Below, piece by piece: positions 1 to 10,607 of a stretch of DNA of 11,364 nucleotides. Source of the stretch: an uncultured Lachnospiraceae bacterium (GTDB lineage Bacteria; Bacillota; Clostridia; Lachnospirales; Lachnospiraceae). A program made the translations under genes and the position numbers. Location of the stretch: assembly GCA_944384015.1 (NCBI GenBank), contig CALWRT010000055.1, positions 1 through 11,364 on the forward strand. Reading direction: 5' to 3'. Within the stretch, counting starts at the first letter, position 1. The number at the start of each line of letters is the position of its first letter. Under the pieces are notes generated by a model. That model did not search any database. It was not told the DNA's origin and was given only the letters and a program-made list of their open reading frames with translations.

Positions 1-16
1 TCTCCGTTGTTTTCAT
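1..16 (-). CDS. 5' end of an unidentified gene (MKTTE...) that runs off the left edge of the window
   Basis: The reverse complement of 1-35 reads AGGAGGGTGTACACA ATG AAA ACA ACG GAG. A strong AGGAGG-type RBS sits 8 nt before an ATG at 16..14. The ATG lies 19 nt downstream of the TAG stop (36-38) of the helicase gene, which suggests co-transcription. Only 5 codons are visible, so the product is unknown. Confidence 0.3.
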
Positions 17-35
17 TGTGTACACCCTCCTGCTT

Positions 36-3000
36 CTACAAGTCAAACAGCTCTGACAGGCTCATCTGATGCCCTCCCTGCTCCTTTCTCCGGAATGCCT
101 CTTCTCTCACTATCAGATAATCCGGCACTGGGAAAAGAAACTCCGATTCCTCTTGTCCGCATGTCAGTATCAGCTCTTCCTGCGCGCGGGTCATCCCCAC
201 ATACAGCAGTCTTCTCTCCTCTTCTCTGTCCACATGATACTTCTCTTCCCGGGGCGGTACGATACCGGCTTCTATCCCGTACAGGAAGATCACCGGGAAC
301 TCCAATCCTTTCGAGCCGTGGAGAGTCATCAGCGTGACAGCCTCTCCCTCATAAGACTTTTGCCCGCATCGCTTCAAGTCGCTCTCCACTCCTAAGGTTA
401 TCGCCTCCAACAGCTCTCCCATAGAGGAATAGAAGACTCCCATCTGGGCCAGCTGTTCCATCGCCTCGTCCTGGGCCAGCCCCATCTGGGCCATCCATCT
501 GCGGATGAACCGTTCCGGCTGCTCCTCTTGGTAATATGGGGCAAACTGCTCTGCCATCGTACGGAGCACTTCTTCCCCGACCGCTCCGGCCTCTTCTTCC
601 TGCCACCGCTGCAGGCACCGCTTCTGAGCTGCCTCATCAGACGGCTGTGCAAGATACTGGAAAAATGCCAGGCTGTCCTGCACCGGCTTCTCTCTCAGAA
701 ATGTCTCTCTCCCGGCCACAATATACGGGATCCCTTCCTGTCGAAGGCACTTTTCCAGCAGCCTTGCCTGCCGGTGTGTACGGTACAAGACCGCAATCTC
801 TCCAAAGCCGCGCAGCCCTCGCTCCTTCTGAACCGACAGAGCCTGAGCGCCCAGCATATCCAATCCTCCTGTCATGCGGCTGATTTCTTTGGCAATAAAA
901 ATCCCTTCTCCCATAGGAGTTGCCGCGCTCACCAGCCGTACCGGGGTTCCTTCTCCCCTGTTTGCATGCAGGCGCTGCCTGTCACCTGGATTACGCGCGA
1001 TGATTTCCCACGCCGCCTCTAATATCTTCTTTGTACTTCTGTAATTTTCTACAAGGGTAACCCGGCATATATCCGGATAGTCTGTTCCAAGGCGCCCGAA
1101 GCAGCCTGGGTCAGCCCCCCGGAATCCATAAATGGCCTGATCCATATCTCCGATCACAAACAGATCTGTCCCCAGTCTGTGCCACTTCTGGATCAGCCGG
1201 TACTGCAGCGGGTTAATATCCTGGAATTCATCCACCAGCAGGCAGGAAAACATGCCGCCGCGAGCCGCCCCGTCCCTATCATCCAGCCTTTCGGCTTCCA
1301 GCAATAAGTCATCAAAATCCAGCAGTCCCTTCTCCTGCATCCAAGCCTGGTAGCAGTGAAGCGCCTCCTGAAATTTCTCATCCTCGCTTCTTTCGTCCTG
1401 GGACTTCCAGCGGGAGACTTTTTCCCGGAACTTCCCCGGGGAGACTGTAAGACTGCATTTCTCAACCGCTTCTTGGGCAGCTTCCAGCGACTGTTCCTCC
1501 CCGGCGATGGAAAACTCTCTTCCCGCCTCTCTCAGAAGCCGCACACAGATCGTATGGAAGGTGCCGGCCTGTACTCCCTCGGCTCCTCTGGGCAATCGCC
1601 CCTTCAATTCCGCAGCGGCCTGGTTTGTAAATGTCACCGCCGTAATCTGCTCCGGCCGCATCCCTCTGTCCTCCAGCAAATACTGGATGCGCGAGATGAG
1701 CGTCTTTGTTTTCCCTGTCCCGGGTCCCGCCGTCACCATGATCCTTCTCTTAGGCGAGTAAGCCGCCCGCCGCTGTTCCTCATTCAGCCCGCCGCTCTGA
1801 TCTGGGCTGACGGCCTCTTCCCGGCTCTCCTCCATCTTATGGACTCCATCATTGCGCGGGGTCTTGTCCTTCTTTTCCTCTCCTTTTTCCTCTCCCATTG
1901 CTCCCAGAAGGGCAAAGAAATCCATCTGTCCTTCCGTATTCCTCTCTTCCCCCGGAAGAAAGACCTGTATGGTCCCGTATGCCCCGTCATAACCCGGGAT
2001 TTTATTCACTTTTCCATCCCTCAGCCTCTGGATTCCCTCTGCAATCATCGTCCCTGATACTCTGCGGATGTCTTCCACAGGGATCTCCCTCAAAATAGCA
2101 AATTCTGAGCCGAGGGTTCCCAGCATCTTCTGATATTCCTTCTGCACCTGCTTGCCTGACGGCCCGCGTCCCAGCACATTTCCCAGCAGCTCCGGCAGAG
2201 GCATCAGGCTCTCATACGGCCTTGCCCCAGGGGGAACGTAACCCTCCTCTCTGTCTGAGAGCTGTTCTGCCCGGTGGGAGACGCCGACCGTCAGTTTTTT
2301 GCCGCACACAGGGCAGATGCCTCCCAGTCCGGCCGCCTCTCCCGGCGATAGACACACGCCGCATTTTCTGTGGCCGTCAAAATGGTATTTCCCCTCTTCC
2401 GGGAAAAATTCAATGGTTCCACACAGCCCTTCGCCCTCTTGGATTGCCCGGTACAGCCCTTCATAGGACAGATCAATGTCCAGCAGATTCGCCTCCCTGC
2501 CCAGCTTGGACGGTGAATGGGCGTCGGAATTCGAGATGAGCTGGCAGCCGTCCAAATCCGATACTCTCCAGTTCATCGGCGGATCCGAGGACAGCCCCGT
2601 CTCCACTGCGTGGATATGCCCGGCCAGATCCTCAAAGCACTCCTCCATGCTGTCAAATCCAGAGAAGGCTCCGAACATGGAAAAGTGAGGCGTCCAGATA
2701 TGCGCAGGGACATAGATCCCCTTCGGGCTGACCTCCAGCATAATCTCCAGCAGATTCCGGCAGTCTATCCCAAGAATCGGCCGCCCGTCAGAATGGATAT
2801 TGCCGATAACTTCCAGCTTCCTGGACAGGCGATTGGCCTCCTCCAGCCCGGGAAGCAGTATCAGGCTGTGTACTTTCCTGACTTTGCCGTTTTTCTTGTA
2901 GATAGAGCTGATCTCCCCGGTTACAGCGAATCTCGGATAGAACGCGTCCGAGACAGGGCCGTCTGGTATCCGGTATTCTTCCTTCAACACATAGAGTCCA

Positions 3001-3179
3001 TCTTCCGCCGGCGCCAGTTTCTCTGCCAGTTCCTCCCGCCAGGCTGGGTGGGTAAAATCCCCGGTGCCGACGATTGCTATTCCTTTTCGCCTGGCCCACA
3101 GATCCAGCTGCTCCGGCGTTCCATCCTTGCTCGTAGCCCTGGAATATCTGGAATGGATATGTAAATCCGCAATATACAT
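36..3179 (-). CDS. Fusion protein of 1047 aa: N-terminal endonuclease Q-like PHP-fold nuclease with an internal four-Cys zinc finger, joined to a C-terminal UvrD/PcrA-like SF1 DNA helicase
   Basis: The N-terminus MYIADLHIHSRYSRATSKDG is a PHP-type metal-binding motif (DLHIHS). Further His/Asp-rich segments follow (HIWTPHF, SNSDAHS). A C-x2-C...C-x2-C finger is present (CGVCLSPGEAAGLGGICPVCGKK). This arrangement and the size (about 415 aa) match the EndoQ/TIGR00375 architecture (nt about 1935-3179). An acidic Lys/Glu-rich low-complexity linker (GEEKGEEKKDK...) spans about nt 1787-1934. The helicase part (nt 39 to about 1786) carries the UvrD motifs: LNEEQRRAA, Walker A AGPGTGKTKTL, TFTNQAAAEL, LLVDEFQDINPLQ (DExx), VIGDMDQAIYGFRGA, ENYRSTKKIL, TLHGSKGLEFPVIFL and LLYVGMTRAQEEL. 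The RBS is AAAGGAAAACAG before the ATG at 3179. Confidence 0.85.
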   Translation of the reverse strand: MYIADLHIHSRYSRATSKDGTPEQLDLWARRKGIAIVGTGDFTHPAWREELAEKLAPAEDGLYVLKEEYRIPDGPVSDAFYPRFAVTGEISSIYKKNGKVRKVHSLILLPGLEEANRLSRKLEVIGNIHSDGRPILGIDCRNLLEIMLEVSPKGIYVPAHIWTPHFSMFGAFSGFDSMEECFEDLAGHIHAVETGLSSDPPMNWRVSDLDGCQLISNSDAHSPSKLGREANLLDIDLSYEGLYRAIQEGEGLCGTIEFFPEEGKYHFDGHRKCGVCLSPGEAAGLGGICPVCGKKLTVGVSHRAEQLSDREEGYVPPGARPYESLMPLPELLGNVLGRGPSGKQVQKEYQKMLGTLGSEFAILREIPVEDIRRVSGTMIAEGIQRLRDGKVNKIPGYDGAYGTIQVFLPGEERNTEGQMDFFALLGAMGEEKGEEKKDKTPRNDGVHKMEESREEAVSPDQSGGLNEEQRRAAYSPKRRIMVTAGPGTGKTKTLISRIQYLLEDRGMRPEQITAVTFTNQAAAELKGRLPRGAEGVQAGTFHTICVRLLREAGREFSIAGEEQSLEAAQEAVEKCSLTVSPGKFREKVSRWKSQDERSEDEKFQEALHCYQAWMQEKGLLDFDDLLLEAERLDDRDGAARGGMFSCLLVDEFQDINPLQYRLIQKWHRLGTDLFVIGDMDQAIYGFRGADPGCFGRLGTDYPDICRVTLVENYRSTKKILEAAWEIIARNPGDRQRLHANRGEGTPVRLVSAATPMGEGIFIAKEISRMTGGLDMLGAQALSVQKERGLRGFGEIAVLYRTHRQARLLEKCLRQEGIPYIVAGRETFLREKPVQDSLAFFQYLAQPSDEAAQKRCLQRWQEEEAGAVGEEVLRTMAEQFAPYYQEEQPERFIRRWMAQMGLAQDEAMEQLAQMGVFYSSMGELLEAITLGVESDLKRCGQKSYEGEAVTLMTLHGSKGLEFPVIFLYGIEAGIVPPREEKYHVDREEERRLLYVGMTRAQEELILTCGQEESEFLFPVPDYLIVREEAFRRKEQGGHQMSLSELFDL

Positions 3180-3525
3180 CTGTTTTCCTTTCTCTCTTGT
3201 ATGATGTCCAGCTTACGATGTTCCTTCATCTTTCCAACAGGCTGTCTGTCCTAAGAAAACACCGATAAAATAAGCGTTCCCCTGAGAATCCTCAGAAAAA
3301 TGACCATATCACCGCGATTACAACGGCGGGCAGCATATTCTCCATTGCCCCGCCATATTTATGATTGTACCAATTCCTTCCAATGAAATTTCCCCGCTTT
3401 TCTGTCATTTGTCTGTTACGCTGACACACCCGGAACACAGTGCCCAGACCGCCTGCCGGCTGCCTGGGCACATATCATCTCCCTATTCTGTCTCCTAGCC
3501 GGCACGCGGCACTCTTTCATCAAAG

Positions 3526-4539
3526 TTACCCTAATCGGAACCCGCAGTTTCCGCAGAACCGCATCCCATTTGTCTTCGCGCCGCAGTTCGGACAGAAGTT
3601 GGGAATTGTGCCTTCACCCGGCTGTCCCTGGGGCGCCGGATTCTGTACATATCCGCCCGCACCGCCTGTTCCCGGACCGCTTGGGCCACCGCTGTTCCTC
3701 TGCTGCATCTGGGACGCCATCTGCTGGCCCATAGCCATCCCCATGGCCATTCCAGCCATATCGGATGCTGGGCCGCTGCCTCCTCTTCCAAGCGCCTCTC
3801 CCATTGACACTTGCTGGAAACGCCCCACATCTCCGATCATGCTCTGGGCAGCAGCCTTCTCTGCCATACGCTGCACTTCTTCTGGATAATTAAAGTTGGA
3901 AATGGAAAAAGAAGTTATGGCAATGCCGATGCCTCTCATCTCCATATCCAGATCTTCCTGAATGCCGTCCCCAATCTCCCTGGCGTTCATCTGAAGGTTG
4001 AACATATTCTTCCCTTCCTTGCCGATCCATTTCATCAGGAACGGATCCAAGGAAGCGATGATGCGCTCTTTCACGTCGTCTACGGTAAATTGTCTCCGCA
4101 CTCCCGCAATCTTATCGATCAGGACATCATAGTCATCCACCTTGCACGTAAACGTTCCGAACGCGCGGATGGGCATTCCCCCTGGCAGTCCCGGCGCAGG
4201 TATCAGCACAGGACTTTTTGTCCCCCATTTCACCAGAATCTCCTTCGTATTGATAAACAGCACTTCCGCCCGGATTCCGCTGTTGAAGCCGAATTTAAAG
4301 CCCTTCAGCGTAGACAGGAAGGGAATGATGTCCGATTCCATCTCATAGCTTCCCTCATCCCGGAAGATCCCTTCTACTACACCATTGTACAGAAATACCG
4401 CATCCTGTCCCGGACGGATGATCAGACGGCTTCCTTTCTTAATCTCGGCGTTGCTCCATTTCCAGAACAGCATGTCATCCCGGAATTCCTCCCATTCAAT
4501 GACATCCGAAAACTGATTGCTAAATAAACCCATTGCCAT
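3526..4539 (-). CDS. SPFH (stomatin/prohibitin/flotillin/HflKC)-domain protein with a C-terminal zinc ribbon (YdjI-like; COG4260, 'putative virion core protein' family)
   Basis: The 337-aa product has an N-terminus MAMGLFSNQFSDVIEWEEF typical of COG4260/YdjI-type SPFH proteins. The C-terminus is low-complexity and Gly/Met/Ala/Gln-rich (MAGMAMGMAMGQQMASQMQQ...), followed by CPNCGAKTNGMRFCGNCG (a C-x2-C-x8-C-x2-C zinc ribbon). A GGGGGAA RBS precedes the ATG. A 12-nt gap separates it from the upstream gene, consistent with an operon. Confidence 0.8.
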   Translation of the reverse strand: MAMGLFSNQFSDVIEWEEFRDDMLFWKWSNAEIKKGSRLIIRPGQDAVFLYNGVVEGIFRDEGSYEMESDIIPFLSTLKGFKFGFNSGIRAEVLFINTKEILVKWGTKSPVLIPAPGLPGGMPIRAFGTFTCKVDDYDVLIDKIAGVRRQFTVDDVKERIIASLDPFLMKWIGKEGKNMFNLQMNAREIGDGIQEDLDMEMRGIGIAITSFSISNFNYPEEVQRMAEKAAAQSMIGDVGRFQQVSMGEALGRGGSGPASDMAGMAMGMAMGQQMASQMQQRNSGGPSGPGTGGAGGYVQNPAPQGQPGEGTIPNFCPNCGAKTNGMRFCGNCGFRLG

Positions 4540-4551
4540 TTCCCCCGTTTC

Positions 4552-5604
4552 CTAACCTATAAAGTAAAATACTAGACCCGCCGCCGCTAATATAATCAAA
4601 ATACACAAAGCGATCTTGAAAATGCTCTTCGGGTATTCCCCTTCAATCTGGCCCGTCTGCCCATTCATCAGCACATGGTATACTTCATCTTTATATTTGT
4701 ACGCTGTCGTATAGACCGGCAGCAGAATGTGTTTGAACGTCTCTGCTGAGAAAAAAGGCGTCATTCGGATATTTCTGACATCGTCGTACCTGGCGAGCAC
4801 CTCGCTCCTGATAAAATCTTCCAGCCTTCTCTCCATTTCCCTGTGCGCGTCTATGTAAGCCTCATCCAGGCTGACTGTAAAACACTCTGATGCATATCCG
4901 GAGAAGTATTCCGGAGCATAGGAGGCCACTTCCCGCGTGTCGAACTGATCCACATCCTTCAGCAGGCCTTCGTCCAGCTTACGGGATGCCGGAATCAATA
5001 CATCGTCGAAAAAGTGTCCAATATGGCCGCTCACAGGATGCCAGGTCATATAAGTCCTTGTCTGGGTCTCTCCTTTGGAATTCTTATAGGTCTGCACATG
5101 GCGGATACCGCCGTCAGCCATATAATCGCTCTCCGACTGGGCATCGAACGTCCAATATGGAATGTAAATTCCCTGAAGCCGGTCCTTCTGATACAAATGC
5201 TTCAGCTCTCCCGGCGCCCAGAATCGTCCTTTGACCCATTCCTGGAATTTTATCCCCGCTTCCTTCTTATCAAATCGGAACGGCACAACCCCGTCTGGGA
5301 CAATCACATCCTCCTGCTTATCTGCCAGCACATATTTAGAGCCGCAGTAGGGGCATTCCGCCGCTGTGCTGGTGGCTTCTACTTCCACTTTGGCTCCGCA
5401 CCCCTGGCAAATCATCGTGTGGGACGTCTTCTCTCCCGCCCGGATCGTCCTCCTGGCCTCCCGGGTCACCGCGTGCTCTTGTATCTTTTCTCTGTCATTC
5501 GTAATTTCAATGGAAGTACCGCACCCAGGGCATCGAAGCGTCTGTGTCCTGGGGTCAAACTCCATAATACTTCCACAGTTCTCACATCGGTATATGTTCC
5601 CCAT
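4552..5604 (-). CDS. Double zinc-ribbon protein with a C-terminal transmembrane anchor (YdjG-like PspA-associated protein)
   Basis: The 350-aa product has two C-x2-C...C-x2-C ribbons near the N-terminus (CENCGS...CPGCGT and CQGCGAKV...CPYCGS). A soluble domain of about 220 aa follows, then a single hydrophobic C-terminal helix (IFKIALCILIILAAAGLVFYFIG). Its ATG lies 3 nt after the pspA stop (TAA TAT ATG), indicating translational coupling. The family assignment rests on the architecture and on synteny with pspA and the SPFH gene, not on recognised sequence identity. Confidence 0.7.
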   Translation of the reverse strand: MGNIYRCENCGSIMEFDPRTQTLRCPGCGTSIEITNDREKIQEHAVTREARRTIRAGEKTSHTMICQGCGAKVEVEATSTAAECPYCGSKYVLADKQEDVIVPDGVVPFRFDKKEAGIKFQEWVKGRFWAPGELKHLYQKDRLQGIYIPYWTFDAQSESDYMADGGIRHVQTYKNSKGETQTRTYMTWHPVSGHIGHFFDDVLIPASRKLDEGLLKDVDQFDTREVASYAPEYFSGYASECFTVSLDEAYIDAHREMERRLEDFIRSEVLARYDDVRNIRMTPFFSAETFKHILLPVYTTAYKYKDEVYHVLMNGQTGQIEGEYPKSIFKIALCILIILAAAGLVFYFIG

Positions 5605-5607
5605 ATA

Positions 5608-6291
5608 TTACAGTCCCAGCTTCGCTTTCAGAGCCGCAAGTTCATCATCCACCTCGCTGCTGGCCGGCGTCCCTTCATCATATTTCTTCATCAGGTCTTC
5701 TGCCGTGTCTTCTTGGCTGTTCAGCTCTGCCATCGCCTCGGCTTCATCCAGCATCCGGTTCGCCTTCTCTTCCATCCGGTCAAAGGCCGACATGGACTCT
5801 CCGACGCCGTCCATGCTGCTTCCCAGCTTGTTCATGCGTTCCCTTGTCTTCACCATCGCCATCTTGGCCTGGATCTCCGACTTGCGCTGGCGCAGTTCCT
5901 TCAAATCCGCCTCCAGCTTATCGTGCATTTCTCTCATTTTCCGAGAGTTCTGTACTGAGACATCATATATCTGCTGCAGGTTCGCCTGCTTCGCTGTAAG
6001 CTCTGTTTTCTTAGCCAGAAATGTCCTGGCATCTCCCTCATTGCCGGCCATCAGCGCTTTCTCAGCATATTTCTGCATCTTCGCAGCCTCAGCCTCATTC
6101 TCTTCCAGGTCCCGCTTCGCCTTCTTCTCGCTTGCCATCACAGCGGCAGTCTCCGCCTTCACTTTGCCTAGATCACTCTCAATATCTCTCATATACTGGC
6201 TGATCATCTTCTCCGGATCTTCTGCTTTATCTAACAGTGCATTGATATTTGCCGACATGATATCTGTAAATCTCTTTAAAATGTTTGCCAT
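5608..6291 (-). CDS. pspA: Phage shock protein A / IM30 family (PspA/LiaH/Vipp1-like, ESCRT-III superfamily) membrane-stress protein
   Basis: The product MANILKRFTDIMSANINALLDKAEDPEKMISQYMRDIESDL... aligns by eye with the E. coli PspA N-terminus ([38 protein letters not shown]). The rest is a charged coiled-coil ending AALKAKLGL, as in PspA. I chose the start at 6291 (ATG preceded by a GGGAGGA RBS at 6298-6304) instead of the track's longer start at 6363, which has no RBS and adds a non-conserved 24-aa extension. Confidence 0.9.
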   Translation of the reverse strand: MANILKRFTDIMSANINALLDKAEDPEKMISQYMRDIESDLGKVKAETAAVMASEKKAKRDLEENEAEAAKMQKYAEKALMAGNEGDARTFLAKKTELTAKQANLQQIYDVSVQNSRKMREMHDKLEADLKELRQRKSEIQAKMAMVKTRERMNKLGSSMDGVGESMSAFDRMEEKANRMLDEAEAMAELNSQEDTAEDLMKKYDEGTPASSEVDDELAALKAKLGL

Positions 6292-6297
6292 TATGAT

Positions 6298-6304
6298 TCC
6301 TCCC
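6298..6304 (-). promoter_or_regulatory. Ribosome-binding site of pspA (GGGAGGA, 6 nt before the ATG)
   Basis: The reverse complement reads ...AATTGGGAGGAATCATA ATG. Confidence 0.6.
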
Positions 6305-6564
6305 AATTTCCTGTTCCTTGGACAATATACATCTATATTCCATTTTACATGAAAACATCTCAAAACGGAACTATAAAATCAAAAATATAGCAGACGTCTG
6401 TTCGGATACCAGTCCCATACAGGCCAAAGTCAGGAAGACTGCGGACGGACTTGTTCGATATTGCGGCAAGCCGGCTGCAGTTACGATTTTCTTTCATCCA
6501 TGTTATAAAAAATTTCCCTTTTCTGACATTTTCCATACGATTGCTTACAAATCCCAGACTTCCC

Positions 6565-6593
6565 TTCCAATCCCACCGCACTTCTGCTACAAT
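6565..6593 (+). promoter_or_regulatory. Putative sigma-A-type promoter for the plus-strand lipoprotein gene
   Basis: The -35 is TTCCAA (6565-6570). A 17-nt spacer follows. An extended -10 TGcTACAAT sits at 6585-6593. The predicted transcription start near 6600 lies upstream of the AAGGAGGA RBS (6609-6616) and the ATG at 6625. Confidence 0.4.
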
Positions 6594-6624
6594 CGTACAT
6601 ACCAAAATAAGGAGGATGTATTTT

Positions 6625-7227
6625 ATGAATCGAAAATTATTGTTGCTATCAGCTATTTGCGCTTTTGCGCTCACTGCCTGCGGTGTTCGGGGCGCCGCTT
6701 CTAATTCTGAGGCAGGCAAGGAAACGGCCTCCTCTTCCTCTAGCGCAGAGACGGATTCTGAGGGGACATCCGCTCCTGATAAAGAATCTGCCGCCTCAGG
6801 TACAGGGACTTCCTCAGGAACCGACGGCGCAGCCGTGGAAGTCAGTCTTGCCTCTCTTGTAGAACTGCTCGGCAAAAATGACTCCGAAGCCGTAGCTCTG
6901 CTGGGTGAGGGAACTCCAGAATATAACGGCGATGATGTTCTTCTTAGCAGAACCTATACAGCAGAACTGCTCGGCGCTCAAGCCGACCTGTCCCTATCTG
7001 TAAACCTGTATCAGTATGGGGAAAACTTGGTAGAACAATGCCGCGCAGATCTTTCTTCCGGGGATTTAGAAACTTATCGCGCCCAGCTTGCAGAACTCTT
7101 CGGTGAGCCGACCGAATCTTATGACAGCTCTTATTTCTTCCAATCCGGTACGGTGACGATTGTTCTTGCAGATCCCTATGGAGATGGTCCCTACATAGAA
7201 ATCTCCATTCCGTCTGATCAAGCATAG
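6625..7227 (+). CDS. Secreted lipoprotein of unknown function, with a Ser/Thr-rich disordered linker
   Basis: A strong AAGGAGGA RBS precedes the ATG at 6625. The signal peptide MNRKLLLLSAICAFALTAC has an L-T-A-C lipobox. An S/T/G/E-rich low-complexity segment follows, then a folded domain of about 110 aa. The track ORF starts earlier at 6451, but that start has no RBS and the signal peptide begins at the internal Met. Confidence 0.75.
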   Translation: MNRKLLLLSAICAFALTACGVRGAASNSEAGKETASSSSSAETDSEGTSAPDKESAASGTGTSSGTDGAAVEVSLASLVELLGKNDSEAVALLGEGTPEYNGDDVLLSRTYTAELLGAQADLSLSVNLYQYGENLVEQCRADLSSGDLETYRAQLAELFGEPTESYDSSYFFQSGTVTIVLADPYGDGPYIEISIPSDQA

Positions 7228-7236
7228 ATAAAACTC

Positions 7237-7262
7237 GCGCCTGCAGTGATTGCTGCAGGCGC
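7237..7262. terminator. Bidirectional intrinsic terminator hairpin between the convergent lipoprotein genes
   Basis: A perfect 10-bp inverted repeat GCGCCTGCAG / CTGCAGGCGC with a 6-nt loop (tgattg). It is flanked on the low side by AAAA (giving GAGTTTTATC on the minus transcript) and on the high side by a weaker T-containing tract (GATTTCGTT). It lies 10 nt past the plus-strand gene's stop and 54 nt past the minus-strand gene's stop. Confidence 0.5.
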
Positions 7263-7315
7263 TGACCGCTGATTTCGTTCCTATCTTATATATCCGTGTA
7301 TTGATATGCCAGCCG

Positions 7316-8017
7316 CTATTTCATAATAGCATTGCTCAGCTCAGTCTCAAACTGTCCGATATCTGACGGCAGCCACGCGACAATCTCATCGCCGCCTCCT
7401 TCTGCAATCAGGCGCTCACAGACCACTTCCATCTGCGTCTCCTGCGTGGGCTCCAGCGACACAATCTTGTCTATGTACGCAGTCATATACTCCTTCATAT
7501 AGTTCATCGTAGCTTCTGTATCTCCCGTGGCAATTGCCATCTGTGTATCTTCATCCATTCCGGCAATCATCTCTTCCTGAACTTCCAGAGCCGCATTCTC
7601 AATATCTGTCATTGCATATCCATTCGTAGTCAGCAAAACTGTTGTTTCATCACTGCTCTCGTCTGTGATCTCTGTCGTGCAGCTCAGCTTATCCAGCATC
7701 CCTTCCAGGCTGCTGCTCATATCTGCCAGTTCTTCATCCGTAAATTCGATTCCGGAAGCGATAAACTCTTCTTCCAAGGATGCTACAAAGCTGAAGCTTT
7801 CCACATCTTCCACAAAGGCCTCCATCACCGCGTCATCAGAGCTGAACCCCAGAAGGTCTTTCAGCGTAGTCGGATTCTCCTTTACCGCCAAGTCATACAA
7901 CGCGCTCACCGTTTCATCCGCTGGCGGAATCTCTTTCCCGCAGCCTGCCAGTGCAATCCCGCAAAATGCCATGACGACAGCCATACAAACAGCCGCTCTT
8001 CTCCCTAAGCGTCTCAT
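7316..8017 (-). CDS. Highly acidic lipoprotein of unknown function
   Basis: The start is taken at the internal Met (8017), preceded by an AAGGGAGA RBS. The signal peptide MRRLGRRAAVCMAVVMAFCGIALAGC has an L-A-G-C lipobox. The mature protein is about 205 aa and rich in Asp/Glu/Thr/Met. The track's longer start at 8107 lacks an RBS and sits before the signal peptide. Confidence 0.75.
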   Translation of the reverse strand: MRRLGRRAAVCMAVVMAFCGIALAGCGKEIPPADETVSALYDLAVKENPTTLKDLLGFSSDDAVMEAFVEDVESFSFVASLEEEFIASGIEFTDEELADMSSSLEGMLDKLSCTTEITDESSDETTVLLTTNGYAMTDIENAALEVQEEMIAGMDEDTQMAIATGDTEATMNYMKEYMTAYIDKIVSLEPTQETQMEVVCERLIAEGGGDEIVAWLPSDIGQFETELSNAIMK

Positions 8018-8077
8018 AATACTATTCTCCCTTCCTATTCTTTGTCTTAGCCTCTCCGGCTTATTAGATACATCAAT

Positions 8078-8108
8078 ATTATACTCCTTATCATCTATAT
8101 GTGACAAT
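8078..8108 (-). promoter_or_regulatory. Putative promoter for the minus-strand lipoprotein gene
   Basis: On the minus strand there is a perfect -10 TATAAT (plus coordinates 8078-8083). A TTGTCA -35-like hexamer lies at 8103-8108, but with a long 19-nt spacer. This would give a 5' UTR of about 50 nt to the ATG at 8017. Confidence 0.35.
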
Positions 8109-8282
8109 AAATATCTTCATAAGCATTGCATTTGGGGGAGCACAAAATATCCGGCGGACATATGCATCCTGTATCCCCTCTTCTTATCAAGCCACCTCTA
8201 CATATCCCCTGCAAAGCACTGCTGATGCCAGTGAAAACTGCTCTATGATTGTTGATTTTTTCTATACACTTCCTGTTTTTTC

Positions 8283-8313
8283 AAAAAATCACGCCGGTGC
8301 AAAAGCACCGGCG
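8283..8313 (-). terminator. Rho-independent terminator downstream of the zinc alcohol dehydrogenase gene
   Basis: A perfect 9-bp stem CGCCGGTGC / GCACCGGCG with a 4-nt AAAA loop (8292-8313). On the minus transcript it is followed immediately by TGATTTTTTG (the complement of the A-run at 8283-8288). It lies about 55 nt past the stop at 8369. A TTTTT tract on the plus side (8317-8321) makes it potentially bidirectional. Confidence 0.7.
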
Positions 8314-8368
8314 CAATTTTTGTGCAATCTCTATTATGGCTATAAAAGTAAAATGGTCTATCGGTCTG

Positions 8369-9421
8369 TCACGGTTTCAACAGAATCTTAATTCCCTCTC
8401 CATTCTCTGCTTTTGCGAATCCCCTCTCCCAATCTGTCAGAGAAAACACATCTGTCTCCACCGCTTCCGCGTTGAGCTGGCCGTTTGACATCATCTGAAG
8501 CACTTTCTCCCATCCTCTGTATCTCTGCCCATAGGAACCCGAGATCCGGATTTCATTATTTACCAACGTATTAAAGGTATTGATCGGGATCTCCCCATTC
8601 TTGAACAAAGATACGATCACAAGCTCTCCCATCTTCTTCAGGGAGACAATTGCCTGATCCAGCACTGCTCCTGCTCCGGAGCACTCAAATGCCGCATCCG
8701 CCCCTCTTCCTCTTGTCAGCTCCTTGATCTTCGCCGGTACGTCTGCTTCATCCGACAGCAGTATCTCATCCGCTCCTAATGCTTTGCCGACGGCCAGCCG
8801 CTTCTCGTCTTTGCTCATCCCGACCAGGATCGCCCGGCTTCCCGCTGCCTTTACCATCTGCAGCACCAACAGCCCGATGGTTCCCGGGCCAAAGATCACT
8901 GTTGTATCCCCCGGCTGCACTGTCGTCTTGTCGTACACCGCATGGGCTGCCACCGCCGCGGGCTCACACAGTGCCGCTTCTTTGAAGGAGACGTTCTCCG
9001 GGATCTTATGTACCAGCTCCTGGCGAATAGTTACATAATCCGCCATCGCCCCGTCTGTCTGGTATCCGATGGAGCGCTTGTGGGAGCACAGCAGGATATT
9101 CCCTGTCCGGCACTGCTCACATTTCCCGCAGTAAATTTCCGGCGTCTCCGAGACCACTCTCTCACCCACCGCGATGCCTTCTACCCCTTCTCCCACTTCC
9201 ACAACTGTGCCGCTGTACTCATGGCCGAAGGTGACCGGGATCGGGATATTCAGGCCCGGACGCATGTTCCAGTGGTAAAATTTCATGTCTGACCCGCAGA
9301 TCCCGCAGTATTCTACCTTAATCTTCACATGGCCCCTGGTTACCTCCGGTTCCGGTATATCTACAAGTTCCATACAGCCGTAGGCTGCCTTCATTTTCCT
9401 CAATGCTTTCATCGCTCTCAT
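8369..9421 (-). CDS. Zinc-dependent medium-chain alcohol dehydrogenase (2,3-butanediol / sorbitol / threonine dehydrogenase-like)
   Basis: VKIKVEYCGICGSD plus GHEYSGTVVEVGEGVEG form the catalytic-Zn motifs, with near-identity to my recollection of the B. subtilis BdhA segment VKIKVKWCGICGSD / GHEFSGEVVEVGEGVEN. CGKCEQCRTGNILLC is a structural-Zn Cys cluster. VIFGPGTIGLLVLQMVKAAG is the Rossmann GxGxxG. I chose the start at 9421 (MRAMKAL..., with AGGAGA and GGGAGGG upstream). The track's start at 9532 would overlap the upstream gene by 40 nt. Alternative starts at 9412 or 9394 are possible. Confidence 0.85.
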   Translation of the reverse strand: MRAMKALRKMKAAYGCMELVDIPEPEVTRGHVKIKVEYCGICGSDMKFYHWNMRPGLNIPIPVTFGHEYSGTVVEVGEGVEGIAVGERVVSETPEIYCGKCEQCRTGNILLCSHKRSIGYQTDGAMADYVTIRQELVHKIPENVSFKEAALCEPAAVAAHAVYDKTTVQPGDTTVIFGPGTIGLLVLQMVKAAGSRAILVGMSKDEKRLAVGKALGADEILLSDEADVPAKIKELTRGRGADAAFECSGAGAVLDQAIVSLKKMGELVIVSLFKNGEIPINTFNTLVNNEIRISGSYGQRYRGWEKVLQMMSNGQLNAEAVETDVFSLTDWERGFAKAENGEGIKILLKP

Positions 9422-9491
9422 GCCCTCCCTGTCTCCTATAGAATTTCCCTCCCCCCTGAAGAAAATTCTGTTCTGCGCAGTCATCTGCTCA

Positions 9492-10607
9492 TCAATACAG
9501 CTCTTTGTATATTTTATATACCCTCGCCTCATCCAGCGGGACGAAGTTGTTGCCCATCAGCCGCCCCTGGGTCTGCATGACGCTCGTTGTGAATTCTTTC
9601 AGGTCTTCCTCTGTCACCCCATACTCATGCAGCGCCTTCTTCGGCAGAATCTGGTTCAGCAGGTCTTCCAGGCGGTCGTAGACTTCTTCTGTCCCGCATC
9701 CCAGCAAATTCGACAGATACTCGTTCATCACCGCGATCTCCCCGTCCTGCCTGATCTCCATATAGTTCTTCAGCACTCCGGTAAACATGGCGTAGTTGCT
9801 CTCCCCGTGGGGTACGTGATACTTTCCTCCCAGCGGGTAACTCATCGCATGAACTGCCGCGCAGCCCGCTGTTCCGAATGCAAGGCCTGCATAGTTGGAG
9901 GCGATCAGGAAGTCATTCAGCAGTCCAATCCGTGCTTCCCGGCCTTCCTTCACGATTGTCTGATATCCTCGGATAATCATTTCAATCGCCTTATACCCGA
10001 ACAGCTTCGTGTATGGCGTCGCCTTCGGCGACAGGCTGGATTCCACCGCATGTACCAGCGCGTCGATGGAACTTGTGGCAAACACCCCGAATGGCAGCGT
10101 CTCCAGCAGCTGCGGAATCAACACCGCGTCATCTGCATACATAGCAGGCCCCACCAGCCCCATCTTCGTCCCAAGCCTCGTCCGGTTCAGGATCGCGATA
10201 TTGGTCACCTCACTTCCTGTCCCGCAGGTGGTCGGGATTATGACTAATTTTCTTCGCTTCGGCAGGTTCGGCGCCATATCATAGAGCTCATCTATGCTCT
10301 CATCACCAGCCACCGCCAATACTTTGGCAATGTCGATCACCGTGCCTCCTCCGATGGCGATAATCCGTTCACAGCCTGTCTTGGCGGCATCCTTCATAAT
10401 CTCCTCTGTCATCACGTCCGTCGGCTCCCCGGCTCCGTATTTCTCCTGGCAGAGCACCGCGCATTTCAGATTCATCGCCCCGAAGTACGGCTGATAGATA
10501 TATTCGTTCGTCAGTACCAGATCTTTTTCCCCCGGCTGAAATTCTTCTACAAATTCCTTGCAAGTGGCAAATCCACTTAACTGTGGCTCCCAGATAATTT
10601 CTTTCAT
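9492..10607 (-). CDS. Iron-containing (group III) alcohol dehydrogenase, 4-hydroxybutyrate dehydrogenase-like
   Basis: The GGGTVIDIAK motif sits at about residue 95. Also present are VIIPTTCGTGSEVTN and HVPHGESNY. Several segments match my recollection of Clostridium kluyveri 4HbD (LTNEFLYKPF / QEKYGLGEP / IIAVGGGSVIDIAK / C-terminal YKKLY) versus VLTNEYIYQPYF / QEKYGAGEP / IIAIGGGTVIDIAK / YKELY here. The start at 10607 (MKEIIWEP..., preceded by AAGGGATGGGAAG) is preferred over the in-frame ATGs at 10631 and 10619, which lack an RBS. Confidence 0.8.
   Translation of the reverse strand: MKEIIWEPQLSGFATCKEFVEEFQPGEKDLVLTNEYIYQPYFGAMNLKCAVLCQEKYGAGEPTDVMTEEIMKDAAKTGCERIIAIGGGTVIDIAKVLAVAGDESIDELYDMAPNLPKRRKLVIIPTTCGTGSEVTNIAILNRTRLGTKMGLVGPAMYADDAVLIPQLLETLPFGVFATSSIDALVHAVESSLSPKATPYTKLFGYKAIEMIIRGYQTIVKEGREARIGLLNDFLIASNYAGLAFGTAGCAAVHAMSYPLGGKYHVPHGESNYAMFTGVLKNYMEIRQDGEIAVMNEYLSNLLGCGTEEVYDRLEDLLNQILPKKALHEYGVTEEDLKEFTTSVMQTQGRLMGNNFVPLDEARVYKIYKELY

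What the first reader, a model, noticed from the sequence alone, without database searches (positions are those of the whole stretch)
36..3179. A single ORF fuses a complete EndoQ-like nuclease to a UvrD-type SF1 helicase
Endonuclease Q (a PHP-fold nuclease with an inserted zinc finger that cleaves 5' of deaminated bases and abasic sites) is characterised as a stand-alone enzyme of about 420 aa in Thermococcales and a few Bacillus species. Here the first ~415 aa carry the DLHIHS PHP motif, a C-x2-C...C-x2-C finger and a trailing helical region, as in stand-alone EndoQ. An acidic Lys/Glu-rich linker joins this in the same reading frame to a helicase with every UvrD/PcrA motif intact (Walker A GPGTGKT, DEFQD, GDxDQxIYxFRGA, NYRST, HGSKGLEFP, VGMTRA). 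A covalent nuclease-helicase pair would amount to a self-contained lesion-incision-plus-unwinding machine for repair of deaminated or abasic DNA, analogous to but distinct from UvrD in nucleotide excision repair/mismatch repair. I cannot tell from memory whether this fusion architecture is already catalogued, so it deserves a check.
Basis: partly seen in the sequence, partly recalled or inferred. Interest (0 to 1): 0.7.

Follow-up and report, generated by a model that had tools for sequence, protein, structure and literature searches.

The report
EndoQ nuclease fused to UvrD-type helicase
One 1047-residue gene joins a complete lesion-specific DNA nuclease (Endonuclease Q) to a UvrD/PcrA-type helicase; this fusion is widespread in anaerobic Firmicutes and listed in databases, but I found no paper that describes or tests it.

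Summary
Window 36..3179 (minus strand) is one uninterrupted 1047-aa ORF. Residues 1-408 are a full-length Endonuclease Q homologue: PfuEndoQ E 4e-49, fold TM 0.84, and every metal ligand and lesion-pocket residue conserved. Residues 409-464 are a disordered linker. Residues 465-1010 are a UvrD/PcrA-type SF1A helicase with all motifs intact.

The fusion is not an artefact or a rarity. At least 345 species genomes carry it. 127 of the 150 closest 50%-identity clusters are ≥950 aa (most shorter ones look truncated or frameshifted). 378 full-length proteins were collected from Lachnospirales, Oscillospirales, Moorellales, Peptococcaceae and Negativicutes, and both catalytic centres are 98-100% conserved in them.

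Databases already record the architecture (Pfam MJ0043_C plus UvrD domains). One GenBank record is even named "Endonuclease Q … / ATP-dependent DNA helicase". I found no paper on it, and the EndoQ literature still calls bacterial EndoQ rare.

New here:
- Two conserved motifs resembling β-clamp-binding motifs. One sits where archaeal EndoQ carries its PCNA-binding box. The other is at the C-terminus, but is atypical in this window.
- A His-Cys3 zinc site.
- A shortened 2B domain without the GIG motif.
- In Moorella the gene lies between uvrB and uvrA-uvrC.

Best reading: a possibly clamp-recruited nick-and-unwind repair enzyme. This is inferred, not shown.

The parts
36..3179 (-). Complete CDS of the EndoQ-UvrD fusion protein (1047 aa plus stop)
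   Evidence: ORF list and translation. Exact match to NCBI protein P0001 on an 11364-nt contig.
3186..3190 (-). Shine-Dalgarno-like AAGGA, 6 nt upstream of the ATG
   Evidence: Read directly from the sequence. No sigma-70 consensus promoter was found in 1..3700.
2403..3179 (-). EndoQ PHP-fold catalytic domain, aa 1-259. Metal ligands H7, H9, E89, H104, H160, D219, H221; lesion pocket G195/S197.
   Evidence: Alignment to PfuEndoQ H8/H10/E76/H84/H139/D193/H195 and G169/S171. These residues are 99-100% conserved in 378 homologues. Residue roles are from PMC5961232 and PMC8307549.
2202..2402 (-). EndoQ Zn-binding domain, aa 260-326. Probable ligands H270, C273, C289, C292; DNA-contact K264/Y265.
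   Evidence: Aligns to PfuEndoQ 239-303 and its C249/C252/C268/C271 site. H270 is 99% conserved, C273/C289/C292 100%, C276 only 63%.
1956..2201 (-). EndoQ C-terminal helical domain, aa 327-408 (region covered by Pfam PF27218 MJ0043_C in the precomputed annotation)
   Evidence: PDB sequence alignment runs to aa 406. Foldseek match to 5zb8 has TM 0.84 over about 410 columns.
1788..1955 (-). Disordered, charged interdomain linker, aa 409-464
   Evidence: pLDDT <50 for aa 414-463. 39% charged residues. The consensus is unconserved here and spacing varies: EndoQ end to Walker A is 74-125 aa (5th-95th percentile), and longer in P0268 and P0128.
1914..1931 (-). Candidate beta-clamp-binding motif 1: G417-QMDFF-422, directly after the EndoQ module
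   Evidence: Translation. G417 and Q418 are invariant and F422 ≥90% conserved in A1. A Q-phi-x-[LF]-[FL] motif is found here in 143 of 247 homologues, against about 3% in shuffled controls. Q418 is 87% and F422 83% conserved in 378 homologues. Consensus Q-phi-x-L-F is from bioRxiv 10.64898/2026.05.27.728225.
150..1787 (-). UvrD/PcrA-type SF1A helicase core, aa 465-1010. Q469; Walker A 485-491; DEFQD 650-654; motif III 677-689; NYRS 712-715; R800; motif V 954-962; motif VI 994-999.
   Evidence: Pfam PF00580 and PF13361 above gathering scores. PcrA 1pjr E 5.7e-72. Foldseek to UvrD/PcrA TM about 0.73. Motif residues are 98-100% conserved.
390..647 (-). Shortened, all-helical 2B subdomain, about aa 845-930, lacking the GIG duplex-binding motif
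   Evidence: PcrA residues 417-541 correspond to only about 74 residues here. The model shows five helices at 849-929. [KR]GIG occurs in 3 of 247 homologues, but is present in the bona fide PcrA of a genome that also carries the fusion.
45..68 (-). C-terminal clamp-binding-like motif, atypical in this window: QMSLSELF (aa 1038-1045). Family consensus is QMSLF/QLSLF.
   Evidence: Translation. 217 of 247 plus 103 of 118 homologues have the motif in their last 20 aa, against about 1% in shuffled controls. Q1038 is 98% conserved.

Best explanation
The gene encodes a bifunctional DNA-repair enzyme.

Shown by sequence and fold:
- The N-terminal 408 residues are a complete, catalytically competent Endonuclease Q. 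It has the PHP two-metal site, the uracil/hypoxanthine/AP pocket, a zinc domain and the helical DNA-clamping domain.
- The C-terminal roughly 580 residues are a catalytically competent UvrD/PcrA-type 3'-5' SF1A helicase.
- The two modules are joined by a flexible linker of 50 to about 190 residues.

Inferred mechanism:
- The EndoQ module flips out a deaminated base (dU, dI) or an abasic site and nicks the strand immediately 5' of it. Like PfuEndoQ, it would tend to stay on the nicked product.
- The tethered helicase then loads at that nick. Moving 3'-5' on the intact strand, it peels off the 5'-lesion-bearing strand and/or evicts the nuclease.
- This hands a gapped or flapped intermediate to Pol I, a flap or 5' exonuclease, and ligase.

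Two conserved Q-phi-x-L-F-like peptides probably tether the enzyme to the DnaN sliding clamp. One lies just after the EndoQ module. The other lies at the extreme C-terminus, and is atypical in this window. This would be the bacterial counterpart of the PCNA-PIP interaction that stimulates archaeal EndoQ.
For: EndoQ identity:
- TIGR00375 matches over its full length, E 1.2e-52.
- PfuEndoQ 5zb8 E 4e-49, aligned aa 4-406 to 5-382.
- Model-to-structure TM 0.84, rmsd 3.4 A.
- All metal ligands, pocket residues and the zinc site are 99-100% conserved in 378 fusions.

Helicase identity:
- Pfam UvrD-helicase and UvrD_C.
- PcrA E 5.7e-72.
- TM about 0.73 to DNA-bound UvrD.
- Motifs Q and I-VI are 98-100% conserved.

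Real, ancient and selected fusion:
- 345 species genomes carry it, and 79 of 80 loci with a complete gene call (79 related loci plus this window) have an intact ORF.
- 127 of the 150 closest 50%-identity clusters are ≥950 aa.
- It spans several classes of Bacillota, including Moorella thermoacetica.
- Identity to the window falls with taxonomic distance, consistent with vertical descent.

Flexible tether: pLDDT <50 for aa 414-463, with variable linker length.

Clamp motifs: the C-terminal motif is present in 217 of 247 and in 103 of 118 homologues, against about 1% by chance. The internal motif is present in 143 of 247, against about 3%. Both match CBMs of Firmicute PolC, Pol I and MutS (bioRxiv 10.64898/2026.05.27.728225). 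The internal one occupies the position of the PfuEndoQ PIP box (PMC5961232).

Repair context:
- Moorella: uvrB-[fusion]-uvrA-uvrC.
- Sporomusa: [fusion]-pcrA-ligA.

From the literature:
- PfuEndoQ stays bound to its nicked product, and downstream steps are unknown (PMC5961232).
- The enzyme's discoverers proposed a branch that needs 'helicase activity' (PMC4357722, Fig. 10 legend).

No copies in phage or viral collections.
Against: - No biochemical activity is shown for any member of the fused family.
- The TIGR00375 score is below the curated cutoff, so substrate range could differ from characterised EndoQs.
- Gene neighbourhood is uninformative in most lineages, including this window and 80 Lachnospirales/Oscillospirales loci. 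The uvr and pcrA-ligA contexts come from only two lineages.
- No LexA box is enriched upstream.
- The window's own C-terminal motif is atypical (QMSLSELF).
- Clamp binding is inferred from short-motif resemblance only.
- The strand on which the helicase loads, and therefore whether it removes the lesion strand, is pure inference.
- The 2B domain lacks the GIG motif, so DNA handling may differ from UvrD.
Confidence: 0.55

Rival explanations
1. Same two activities, different coupling. The helicase is not an excision motor. It may be a translocase that scans DNA and delivers the EndoQ module to lesions, for example on ssDNA at forks or in R-loops. Alternatively it may only strip the tightly bound nuclease from its nicked product so that the enzyme can turn over.
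For: - PfuEndoQ cleaves ssDNA as well as dsDNA and behaves as a single-turnover enzyme that stays on its product (PMC5961232, PMC6202378).
- The long flexible linker allows either geometry.
- Clamp-binding-like motifs fit replication-fork-associated scanning.
- The shortened 2B domain without GIG suggests altered duplex engagement.
Against: UvrD-family enzymes are established nick-initiated unwinders in NER and MMR (textbook knowledge). Placement of the gene inside the uvrB...uvrA-uvrC cluster in Moorella fits an excision role. Nothing here discriminates directly between the two models.
Confidence: 0.2
2. An anti-phage or anti-mobile-DNA nuclease-helicase. It would recognise uracil-containing or otherwise non-canonical foreign DNA and degrade it processively, analogous to Gabija GajB-type or Nhi-type helicase-nuclease defences.
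For: - The best PADLOC hits are GajB models (E 2e-72).
- In one clade (6 loci) a ThsA/Dsr-like SIR2_2 gene is directly adjacent, co-oriented and sometimes overlapping.
- In Calderihabitans the gene abuts a Wadjet JetABCD cluster.
- Neighbourhoods are variable.
- The literature has speculated that Bacillus EndoQ could act against uracil-DNA phages (PMC8307549).
Against: - GajB models match any UvrD-like helicase, and PcrA/UvrD models match as well or better.
- No GajA or other conserved partner is present.
- The gene was recovered from 345 species genomes, with identity that falls with taxonomic distance, unlike patchy defence islands.
- No copies occur on phages or viral contigs, and the only plasmid hit is a stand-alone EndoQ.
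- Clamp-binding-like motifs and uvr/pcrA-ligA contexts point to housekeeping repair.
- The SIR2 neighbour is confined to one small clade.
Confidence: 0.12
3. A general end-processing or recombination helicase-nuclease of the AddA/RecB/AdnAB kind. The PHP domain would act as a non-lesion-specific exo- or endonuclease on unwound DNA.
For: UvrD-like motors fused to nucleases are the rule in AddAB, RecBCD and AdnAB, and these appear as weaker structural and HMM matches. PHP domains of PolX and Pol III act as 3'-5' exonucleases (established knowledge).
Against: - The nuclease is N-terminal and of the EndoQ type, not a C-terminal PD-(D/E)xK domain.
- The lesion pocket (H160/G195/S197), the zinc domain and the DNA-bending helical domain are all strictly conserved. 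That would be unnecessary for a non-specific nuclease.
- No AddB/RecC/RecD-like partner gene is nearby.
Confidence: 0.07
4. The fusion is an assembly or frameshift artefact of a metagenome-assembled contig that joins two adjacent genes.
For: The window is a short (11.4 kb) contig from an uncultured organism.
Against: The same continuous architecture is found in isolate and complete genomes (Sellimonas catena, Eisenbergiella tayi, Blautia glucerasea, Moorella thermoacetica, Sporomusa aerivorans). It is also found in 79 of the 80 loci with a complete gene call.
Confidence: 0.01

Closest known systems
Archaeal Endonuclease Q (P. furiosus PF1551, PDB 5ZB8 / 7K30; T. kodakarensis TK0887; M. acetivorans EndoQ)
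   Same: - Same three-domain nuclease: PHP catalytic, Zn-binding and C-terminal helical domains.
- About 35% identity, TM 0.84.
- Identical metal ligands and identical H/G/S lesion pocket.
- A short sliding-clamp-type peptide follows the helical domain in a disordered segment. It is a PIP box in archaea and a Q-M-D-F-F motif here.
   Different: - Here the disordered tail continues into a roughly 580-aa UvrD-type helicase.
- The first zinc ligand is His, not Cys.
- There are two insertions in the PHP domain, about aa 66-81 and 90-100.
- The score is below the TIGR00375 equivalog cutoff.
- The clamp partner would be bacterial DnaN rather than PCNA.
Bacterial stand-alone EndoQ (B. pumilus EndoQ; B. 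subtilis YqxK by my recollection; 'endonuclease Q family protein' WP_031414379.1 of Brevibacillus laterosporus)
   Same: Homologous over the whole EndoQ module, about 29-31% identity, with the same catalytic residues.
   Different: - Stand-alone, 393 aa, with no helicase in the gene or next to it (nudix-endoQ-spoIIM-fur-xerD).
- C4 zinc site.
- No clamp-binding-like tail in the Brevibacillus protein.
- The fused EndoQ module is about as distant from the Bacillales form as from the archaeal form.
PcrA / UvrD / Rep (SF1A 3'-5' DNA helicases)
   Same: All helicase motifs. 1A/1B/2A/2B fold, with TM about 0.73 to DNA-bound UvrD. UvrD's established role is unwinding from a nick after incision in NER and MMR.
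   Different: - About 30% identity to the bona fide PcrA of a genome that also carries the fusion, against 36-40% among fusion helicases from different classes.
- Scores are far below the PcrA, UvrD and Rep equivalog cutoffs.
- The 2B domain is about 50 aa shorter and lacks GIG.
- There is no C-terminal Tudor/RNAP-binding domain, which the true PcrA next door has.
AddA / RecB / AdnB helicase-nucleases
   Same: A UvrD-like SF1A motor is covalently joined to a nuclease, so unwinding and cutting are coupled in one polypeptide.
   Different: - Those carry a C-terminal PD-(D/E)xK nuclease, work on DNA ends and need partner subunits.
- Here the nuclease is N-terminal, has a PHP fold and is lesion-specific by homology.
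- No partner gene is conserved.
Gabija GajB and other UvrD-like defence helicases
   Same: UvrD-like core. GajB HMM E 2e-72.
   Different: No GajA partner. Distribution looks vertical and core-genome-like. The match is generic for the UvrD family.

Membership tests
Endonuclease Q (EndoQ / TIGR00375 / COG1379) | PHP-fold catalytic domain with metal ligands H8, H10, E76, H84, H139, D193 (and H195) in PfuEndoQ numbering | tested here: met
   The equivalents H7, H9, E89, H104, H160, D219 and H221 align and are 99-100% conserved in 378 fusions. Ligand list from PMC5961232.
Endonuclease Q (EndoQ / TIGR00375 / COG1379) | Lesion-base pocket (H139, G169, S171) that excludes T and A | tested here: met
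   H160, G195 and S197 are 100% conserved. Residue roles from PMC8307549.
Endonuclease Q (EndoQ / TIGR00375 / COG1379) | Zn-binding domain with four ligands (C249, C252, C268, C271) | tested here: met
   The domain aligns. The ligand set is H270/C273/C289/C292, so the first Cys is replaced by His in 99% of fusions. Metal binding itself was not tested.
Endonuclease Q (EndoQ / TIGR00375 / COG1379) | C-terminal helical domain, giving the overall three-domain fold | tested here: met
   Foldseek match to 5zb8: TM 0.83-0.84, rmsd 3.4-3.5 A over 410-416 columns. Match to 7k30: TM 0.81.
Endonuclease Q (EndoQ / TIGR00375 / COG1379) | Score at or above NCBIfam TIGR00375's curated cutoff (326.6 bits) | tested here: not met
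   179.6 bits, E 1.2e-52, but over the full profile 2-374 of 374. This marks a divergent subfamily rather than an equivalog.
Endonuclease Q (EndoQ / TIGR00375 / COG1379) | Mg2+-dependent incision immediately 5' of dU, dI, dX or an AP site | not testable with these tools
   Needs purified protein and lesion-containing oligonucleotides.
UvrD/PcrA/Rep SF1A helicases | Pfam UvrD-helicase (PF00580) and UvrD_C (PF13361) above gathering scores | tested here: met
   183.5 bits against a cutoff of 23, and 153.6 bits against 25.6.
UvrD/PcrA/Rep SF1A helicases | Conserved motifs Q, I, Ia, II, III, IV, V and VI | tested here: met
   Key residues are 98-100% conserved in 378 homologues.
UvrD/PcrA/Rep SF1A helicases | Four-subdomain architecture with a full 2B domain carrying the GIG duplex-binding motif | tested here: inconclusive
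   The overall fold matches (TM about 0.73). However, 2B is about 50 aa shorter and [KR]GIG is absent in 244 of 247 homologues.
PcrA / UvrD / Rep orthologues (housekeeping equivalogs) | Equivalog-level HMM score and a C-terminal Tudor/partner-binding extension | tested here: not met
   TIGR01073 scores 325.5 against a cutoff of 911. UvrD and Rep models are also far below cutoff. There is no Tudor domain. A separate PcrA with a Tudor domain lies next to the fusion gene in Sporomusa.
Beta-clamp (DnaN) client proteins | Exposed Q-phi-x-L-F (QL[S/D]LF) peptide in a disordered region or at a terminus | tested here: inconclusive
   The family consensus is QMSLF/QLSLF at the C-terminus and QMDFF after the EndoQ module, both far above shuffled controls. 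The window has a canonical internal motif but an atypical C-terminal QMSLSELF. Binding was not tested.
Gabija (GajA+GajB) defence system | GajB helicase encoded next to the GajA OLD-family nuclease | tested here: not met
   No conserved neighbour in 80 loci. The window's neighbours are a PspA/Zn-ribbon/SPFH operon.
AddA/RecB helicase-nucleases | C-terminal PD-(D/E)xK nuclease domain and partner subunits | tested here: not met
   Matches to the AddA and RecB models fall within aa 562-728 of the helicase core and are far below cutoff. No Pfam nuclease family matches after the helicase core, which ends at about aa 1007-1010 and leaves only a roughly 40-aa tail.

The most novel reading that the evidence does not exclude
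The helicase-fused form, not the stand-alone enzyme, may be the main bacterial version of Endonuclease Q. It would constitute a DnaN-clamp-coupled, single-polypeptide 'nick-and-unwind' excision pathway for deaminated and abasic DNA in anaerobic Bacillota, including dominant gut Lachnospiraceae. It would be the bacterial counterpart of archaeal EndoQ-PCNA. As a natural fusion of two pathway partners, it would point to a helicase as the missing step downstream of EndoQ incision.
Probability: 0.35. Interest if true: 0.7.

Novelty: new variant of a known kind. Interest (0 to 1): 0.55.

Why it matters
EndoQ was discovered in 2015, and what happens after it nicks DNA is still unresolved. Papers up to 2024 describe it as archaeal, with homologues in only 'some limited groups' of bacteria.

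This window belongs to a large, strictly conserved family in which EndoQ is welded to a UvrD-type helicase and appears to carry sliding-clamp-binding peptides. The family covers hundreds of species of Lachnospiraceae, Oscillospirales, Moorella, Peptococcaceae and Negativicutes.

If the inferred mechanism is right:
- It gives direct genomic evidence that a helicase acts downstream of EndoQ.
- It extends the clamp-EndoQ partnership from archaea to bacteria.
- It defines an unstudied excision-repair route in some of the most abundant human-gut anaerobes.

It also exposes systematic mis-annotation. The same protein is called PcrA, Rep, 'DNA helicase' or 'UvrD-helicase domain-containing protein' in public records. 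The thermophile Moorella thermoacetica offers an easy source of protein for testing.

Tried and rejected
1. Sequencing or assembly artefact. Rejected: 79 of the 80 loci with a complete gene call have intact ORFs, and the same architecture occurs in complete genomes.
2. Generic PHP phosphoesterase. Rejected: no Pfam PHP hit, only a sub-threshold PHP_C match, and a full-length EndoQ match.
3. Conserved operon partner. ORFs of 80 loci were clustered and no neighbour was shared beyond genus level. A BLAST of UvrA/B/C, PcrA, LigA, NUDIX and RecQ against those ORFs found nothing adjacent.
4. SOS regulation. A GAAC-N4-GTTC box with ≤1 mismatch occurs upstream in 4 of 77 loci, against a 7% background. 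There is no evidence for it.
5. Promoter scan of 1..3700 found no sigma-70 consensus match.
6. Phage or plasmid carriage. There was no tblastn hit in 50,697 phage records and no pattern hit in IMG/VR. The single plasmid-collection hit was a stand-alone EndoQ in chromosome-like context.
7. Gabija membership. Rejected because there is no GajA.
8. Housekeeping PcrA. Rejected on equivalog scores, the missing Tudor domain and a co-resident true PcrA.
9. Literature. Ten full-text searches (EndoQ plus helicase, UvrD, fused or Clostridia; COG1379; TIGR00375/YqxK/PF27218; PHP domain plus UvrD) found no description of the fusion. Several EndoQ papers are not held (for example PMC6941527), so absence is not proof.
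11. Rfam and tRNA scans of the window were empty.
12. I could not determine what fraction of the roughly 1,100 EndoQ-like 50%-identity clusters (E ≤1e-30) beyond the best 150 are fused.

Full report
**1. Observation**

Window 36..3179 holds a single uninterrupted ORF on the minus strand (ATG at 3179, TAG at 38-36, 1047 aa). An AAGGA Shine-Dalgarno-like element lies 6 nt upstream.

**2. Domain identity: the nuclease**

- NCBIfam TIGR00375, the EndoQ family model, matches aa 4-404 over the entire profile (2-374 of 374) with E 1.2e-52. At 179.6 bits it stays below the curated equivalog cutoff of 326.6.
- Pfam finds no generic PHP domain. The only PHP-related hit is a sub-threshold PHP_C match.
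- Among solved structures, only P. furiosus EndoQ matches the N-terminal 463 aa (5zb8 E 4e-49; aa 4-406 against 5-382).
- In a MAFFT alignment, the window keeps every PfuEndoQ metal ligand. H8, H10, E76, H84, H139, D193 and H195 correspond to H7, H9, E89, H104, H160, D219 and H221.
- It also keeps the lesion pocket (G169/S171 correspond to G195/S197) and the DNA-contact residues K243/Y244 (K264/Y265). Residue roles are taken from PMC5961232 and PMC8307549.
- The zinc site differs in one respect. PfuEndoQ C249 is His (H270) in the fused family.
- Identity to PfuEndoQ is about 35%, and to a Bacillales stand-alone EndoQ about 31%.

**3. Domain identity: the helicase**

- Pfam UvrD-helicase (aa 465-701, E 8.6e-54) and UvrD_C (to aa 1007, E 1.2e-44) both match.
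- PcrA is the best solved relative (E 5.7e-72).
- PcrA, UvrD and Rep equivalog models all match far below their cutoffs (for example 325 against 911 bits).
- Relative to PcrA, the 2B subdomain is about 50 residues shorter.
- The [KR]GIG duplex-binding motif is missing in 244 of 247 family members.
- There is no C-terminal Tudor domain.
- In Sporomusa aerivorans the fusion gene lies directly upstream of a bona fide pcrA (740 aa, KGIG and Tudor domain present) and ligA.
- Fusion helicases from different classes are 36-40% identical to one another, but only about 30% identical to that PcrA. The helicase is therefore an old, distinct paralogue of PcrA/UvrD, not the housekeeping enzyme.

**4. Structure**

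An AlphaFold2 model built on 51 homologues has mean pLDDT 79.7 and pTM 0.55. It shows two well-folded modules and a linker with pLDDT <50 (aa 414-463).

Foldseek against the PDB:
- The C-terminal module matches DNA-bound UvrD and PcrA (TM about 0.73, rmsd 4.6-5 A). It fits these closed forms better than the apo open forms.
- The N-terminal module matches PfuEndoQ (TM 0.84, rmsd 3.4 A).

Three short low-confidence loops inside the EndoQ module (aa 163-173, 196-201, 260-264) coincide with invariant residues. They align with PfuEndoQ's DNA- and lesion-contacting positions, which suggests induced-fit DNA-binding loops.

**5. Is the fusion real, conserved and common?**

- A scan of one genome per species recovered 345 genomes encoding a relative, using only 8-mer peptides from this protein. 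The 80 best loci matched nearly the whole protein. They include isolates such as Sellimonas catena, Eisenbergiella tayi, Blautia glucerasea, Merdimonas faecis and Massiliimalia timonensis.
- Of the 80 loci with a complete gene call (79 of those related loci plus this window), 79 carry a continuous ORF of 1027-1177 aa. One locus (L026) is cut by the contig end. The single interrupted gene is broken inside the helicase, not in the linker.
- An exhaustive HMMER search with the EndoQ module alone found 3916 clusters at 50% identity (1129 at E ≤1e-30). Of the best 150, 127 are ≥950 aa. Most of the rest carry part of the helicase or frameshift-like tails, so they look like truncated fusions.
- A second search seeded with the Neomoorella glycerini protein extended the family. 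It reaches Moorella/Neomoorella (including M. thermoacetica ATCC 39073), Calderihabitans, Thermoanaerobacteraceae, Syntrophomonadaceae, Pelotomaculum/Peptococcaceae, Candidatus Formimonas, Caproiciproducens, and the Negativicutes Sporomusa, Dendrosporobacter and Methylomusa.
- In 378 full-length members, all nuclease ligands, the lesion pocket, H270/C273/C289/C292 and the key residues of all helicase motifs are 98-100% conserved. C276 is conserved in only 63%. Both activities are therefore under purifying selection.
- The linker is unconserved and variable. The distance from the EndoQ end to Walker A is 74-125 aa (5th-95th percentile), and the linker reaches about 190 aa in the longest members.

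**6. Candidate sliding-clamp motifs (not in the original finding)**

Two short conserved peptides lie in otherwise unconserved, disordered sequence.

- The first lies directly after the EndoQ module. The window has G417-Q-M-D-F-F422. A Q-phi-x-[LF]-[FL] motif occurs there in 143 of 247 homologues, against about 3% in shuffled controls. Q418 is 87% and F422 83% conserved in 378 sequences.
- The second lies at the extreme C-terminus. It occurs in 217 of 247 and in 103 of 118 homologues (QMSLF 98, QLSLF 37+36), against about 1% by chance. It usually ends 0-4 residues before the C-terminus, and its Gln is 98% conserved.
- These match the bacterial clamp-binding consensus Q-phi-x-L-F (QL[S/D]LF). 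They also match verified Firmicute motifs: PolC QLSLF, Pol I QLELF and MutS QLSFF (bioRxiv 10.64898/2026.05.27.728225).
- The window's own C-terminal copy is atypical (QMSLSELF). Its closest relative has the same variant.
- The first motif sits exactly where PfuEndoQ carries its PCNA-binding PIP box, in the disordered tail after residue 400. PCNA stimulates that enzyme (PMC5961232).
- Clamp binding is an inference from motif resemblance and positional analogy only.

**7. Genomic context**

- In the window, the upstream genes form a PspA / zinc-ribbon / SPFH operon. Only about 16 nt of a downstream gene remain before the contig ends.
- Across 80 Lachnospirales/Oscillospirales loci, no neighbour is conserved beyond genus level, and no repair gene is adjacent.
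- In deeper lineages the picture is mixed.
  - Two Moorella/Neomoorella species have uvrB-[fusion]-uvrA-uvrC.
  - Sporomusa has [fusion]-pcrA-ligA.
  - Formimonas has a NUDIX gene upstream, as Brevibacillus does next to its stand-alone endoQ. The two NUDIX proteins are not detectably similar.
  - One genome has an AP_endonuc_2 gene 1.2 kb upstream.
  - Calderihabitans has a divergent Wadjet cluster next door.
  - The other genomes examined are uninformative.
- One small clade (about 70% mutual identity; 6 loci) has a ThsA/Dsr-like SIR2_2 gene directly adjacent, upstream or downstream and sometimes overlapping.
- No LexA box is enriched upstream.
- No copy occurs in phage or IMG/VR collections. 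The only hit in the plasmid collection is a stand-alone Brevibacillus EndoQ in chromosome-like context.

**8. Mechanism**

*Shown.* One polypeptide carries a complete EndoQ-type active site and lesion pocket, and a complete SF1A ATPase/helicase. The two are connected by a flexible tether, and both are strictly conserved.

*From the literature.*
- EndoQ nicks immediately 5' of dU, dI, dX and AP sites, leaving 3'-OH and 5'-P ends.
- It remains bound to the product.
- The downstream steps are unknown.
- Its discoverers proposed a branch that requires 'helicase activity' (PMC4357722, PMC5961232).
- UvrD-family helicases translocate 3'-5' and start unwinding at nicks in NER and MMR (textbook knowledge).

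*Inferred.*
- After incision, the tethered helicase loads at the nick.
- If it tracks 3'-5' on the intact strand, it moves past the lesion and peels off the 5'-lesion-bearing strand as a flap or ssDNA. That intermediate would go to a 5' nuclease, then Pol I fills the gap and ligase seals it.
- The helicase would also evict the product-bound nuclease.
- The clamp-binding-like peptides would concentrate the enzyme on DnaN left on DNA.

I put 0.55 on this reading. The rivals are:
- the helicase as a scanning or turnover motor only (0.20);
- an anti-foreign-DNA defence role (0.12);
- an AddA-like general helicase-nuclease (0.07);
- an assembly artefact (0.01).

**9. Comparison with what is known, and novelty**

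By homology the protein is a divergent member of the EndoQ family and a divergent paralogue within the UvrD/PcrA family. It is not a PcrA/UvrD/Rep orthologue, not GajB of a Gabija system, and not an AddA/RecB-type enzyme.

The architecture is already recorded in databases:
- Precomputed Pfam shows PF27218 (MJ0043_C) plus UvrD domains on all listed hits.
- IMG calls such proteins 'TIGR00375 family'.
- One GenBank MAG protein (MBA1335645.1) is annotated 'Endonuclease Q, cleaves 5' to damaged DNA bases / ATP-dependent DNA helicase...'.
- Most records, however, call it PcrA, Rep, 'DNA helicase' or 'UvrD-helicase domain-containing protein'.

Ten full-text searches found no paper that mentions the fusion. 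EndoQ papers from 2015 to 2024 state that bacterial homologues are confined to a few groups (PMC4357722, PMC6202378, PMC11354406). Some relevant papers are not in the library.

I therefore rate it a new variant of a known kind. It is catalogued as sequence but undescribed and untested as biology.

**10. Verdict**

- The functional model is reasonable but unproven.
- Interest is moderate to high (0.55). The fusion would not astonish a specialist, but it makes the open question of what follows EndoQ incision directly testable.
- It also suggests a clamp-EndoQ partnership in bacteria, and it concerns a very abundant group of gut anaerobes.

Noticed in passing
window 1914-1931 (-) and 45-68 (-); family-wide in P0001-P0401: Two conserved peptides resembling beta-clamp-binding motifs. 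QMDFF lies right after the EndoQ module, at the position of the archaeal PIP box. QMSLF/QLSLF lies at the extreme C-terminus. The window's C-terminal copy is atypical (QMSLSELF).
   Followed up: yes
window 2302-2372 (-), aa 270-292: The zinc site of the fused family is His-Cys3 (H270, C273, C289, C292), not the Cys4 of PfuEndoQ. C276, which gives the apparent C-x2-C in the window, is kept in only 63% of 378 homologues.
   Followed up: yes
L045 9324-10166; L049 2977-3819; L053 4129-4977; L061 4883-5902; L066 623-1483; L067 5052-5924: In one clade of mouse-gut Lachnospiraceae, a roughly 280-aa SIR2_2 protein is encoded directly next to the fusion gene. It resembles the SIR2 domain of Thoeris ThsA (E 5e-32) and Dsr1. 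It lies upstream or downstream, is co-oriented, and overlaps the fusion gene in two cases. This may be a defence-type pairing confined to that clade.
   Followed up: partly
L082 3848-15750 and L084 3102-14620: In Neomoorella glycerini and Moorella thermoacetica the fusion gene is inserted between uvrB and uvrA-uvrC. In M. thermoacetica, toxin-antitoxin genes (HicA-type, and PIN/MazE-type) also flank uvrB.
   Followed up: partly
L083 6001-13781: In Sporomusa aerivorans the fusion gene lies immediately upstream of a bona fide pcrA (with Tudor domain and KGIG motif) and ligA. The genome therefore has both helicases side by side.
   Followed up: partly
L081 5423-7170 and L085 5146-9339: A NUDIX hydrolase gene sits immediately upstream of the stand-alone endoQ in Brevibacillus and of the fusion gene in Candidatus Formimonas. 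The two NUDIX proteins show no detectable similarity in BLASTP, so the adjacency may be coincidental.
   Followed up: partly
window 3526-6294 (-): An operon of PspA/IM30 (5608-6294), a 350-aa multi-zinc-ribbon membrane-anchored protein (4552-5604) and an SPFH/Band_7_1 protein with a C-terminal zinc ribbon (3526-4539). It resembles, by my recollection, the B. subtilis pspA-ydjGHI membrane-stress operon.
   Followed up: partly
window 1-16 (-): A further gene starts 19 nt after the stop codon of the fusion gene (ATG at 16-14, GGAGGG at 30-25). It is cut off by the contig end after about five codons (MKTTE...).
   Followed up: no
window aa 163-173, 196-201, 260-264 (nt about 2661-2693, 2577-2594, 2388-2402, minus strand): Three loops of the EndoQ module are invariant across homologues yet have pLDDT <50 in the model. 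They align with PfuEndoQ lesion- and DNA-contacting positions (W144 region, G169/S171, K243/Y244).
   Followed up: no
public records of P0280/P0388-P0401, P0128, P0274, P0375: The same fusion protein is annotated inconsistently. Names include 'ATP-dependent DNA helicase PcrA', 'Rep', 'DNA helicase', 'Polymerase/histidinol phosphatase-like' and 'UvrD-helicase domain-containing protein'. Only once is it named 'Endonuclease Q ... / ATP-dependent DNA helicase ...'.
   Followed up: partly
L067 5953-9162: In Clostridiaceae bacterium 1XD21-29 the fusion gene is interrupted within the helicase domain (ORFs of 729 aa and 335 aa). This is either a pseudogene or a sequencing error.
   Followed up: no
window 1-11364: All convincingly assigned genes lie on the minus strand. 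One unassigned 258-aa ORF with no Pfam match (6451-7227) is on the plus strand. GC skew of the plus strand is negative throughout, which is consistent with the minus strand being the leading strand. No tRNA or Rfam family was found.
   Followed up: no
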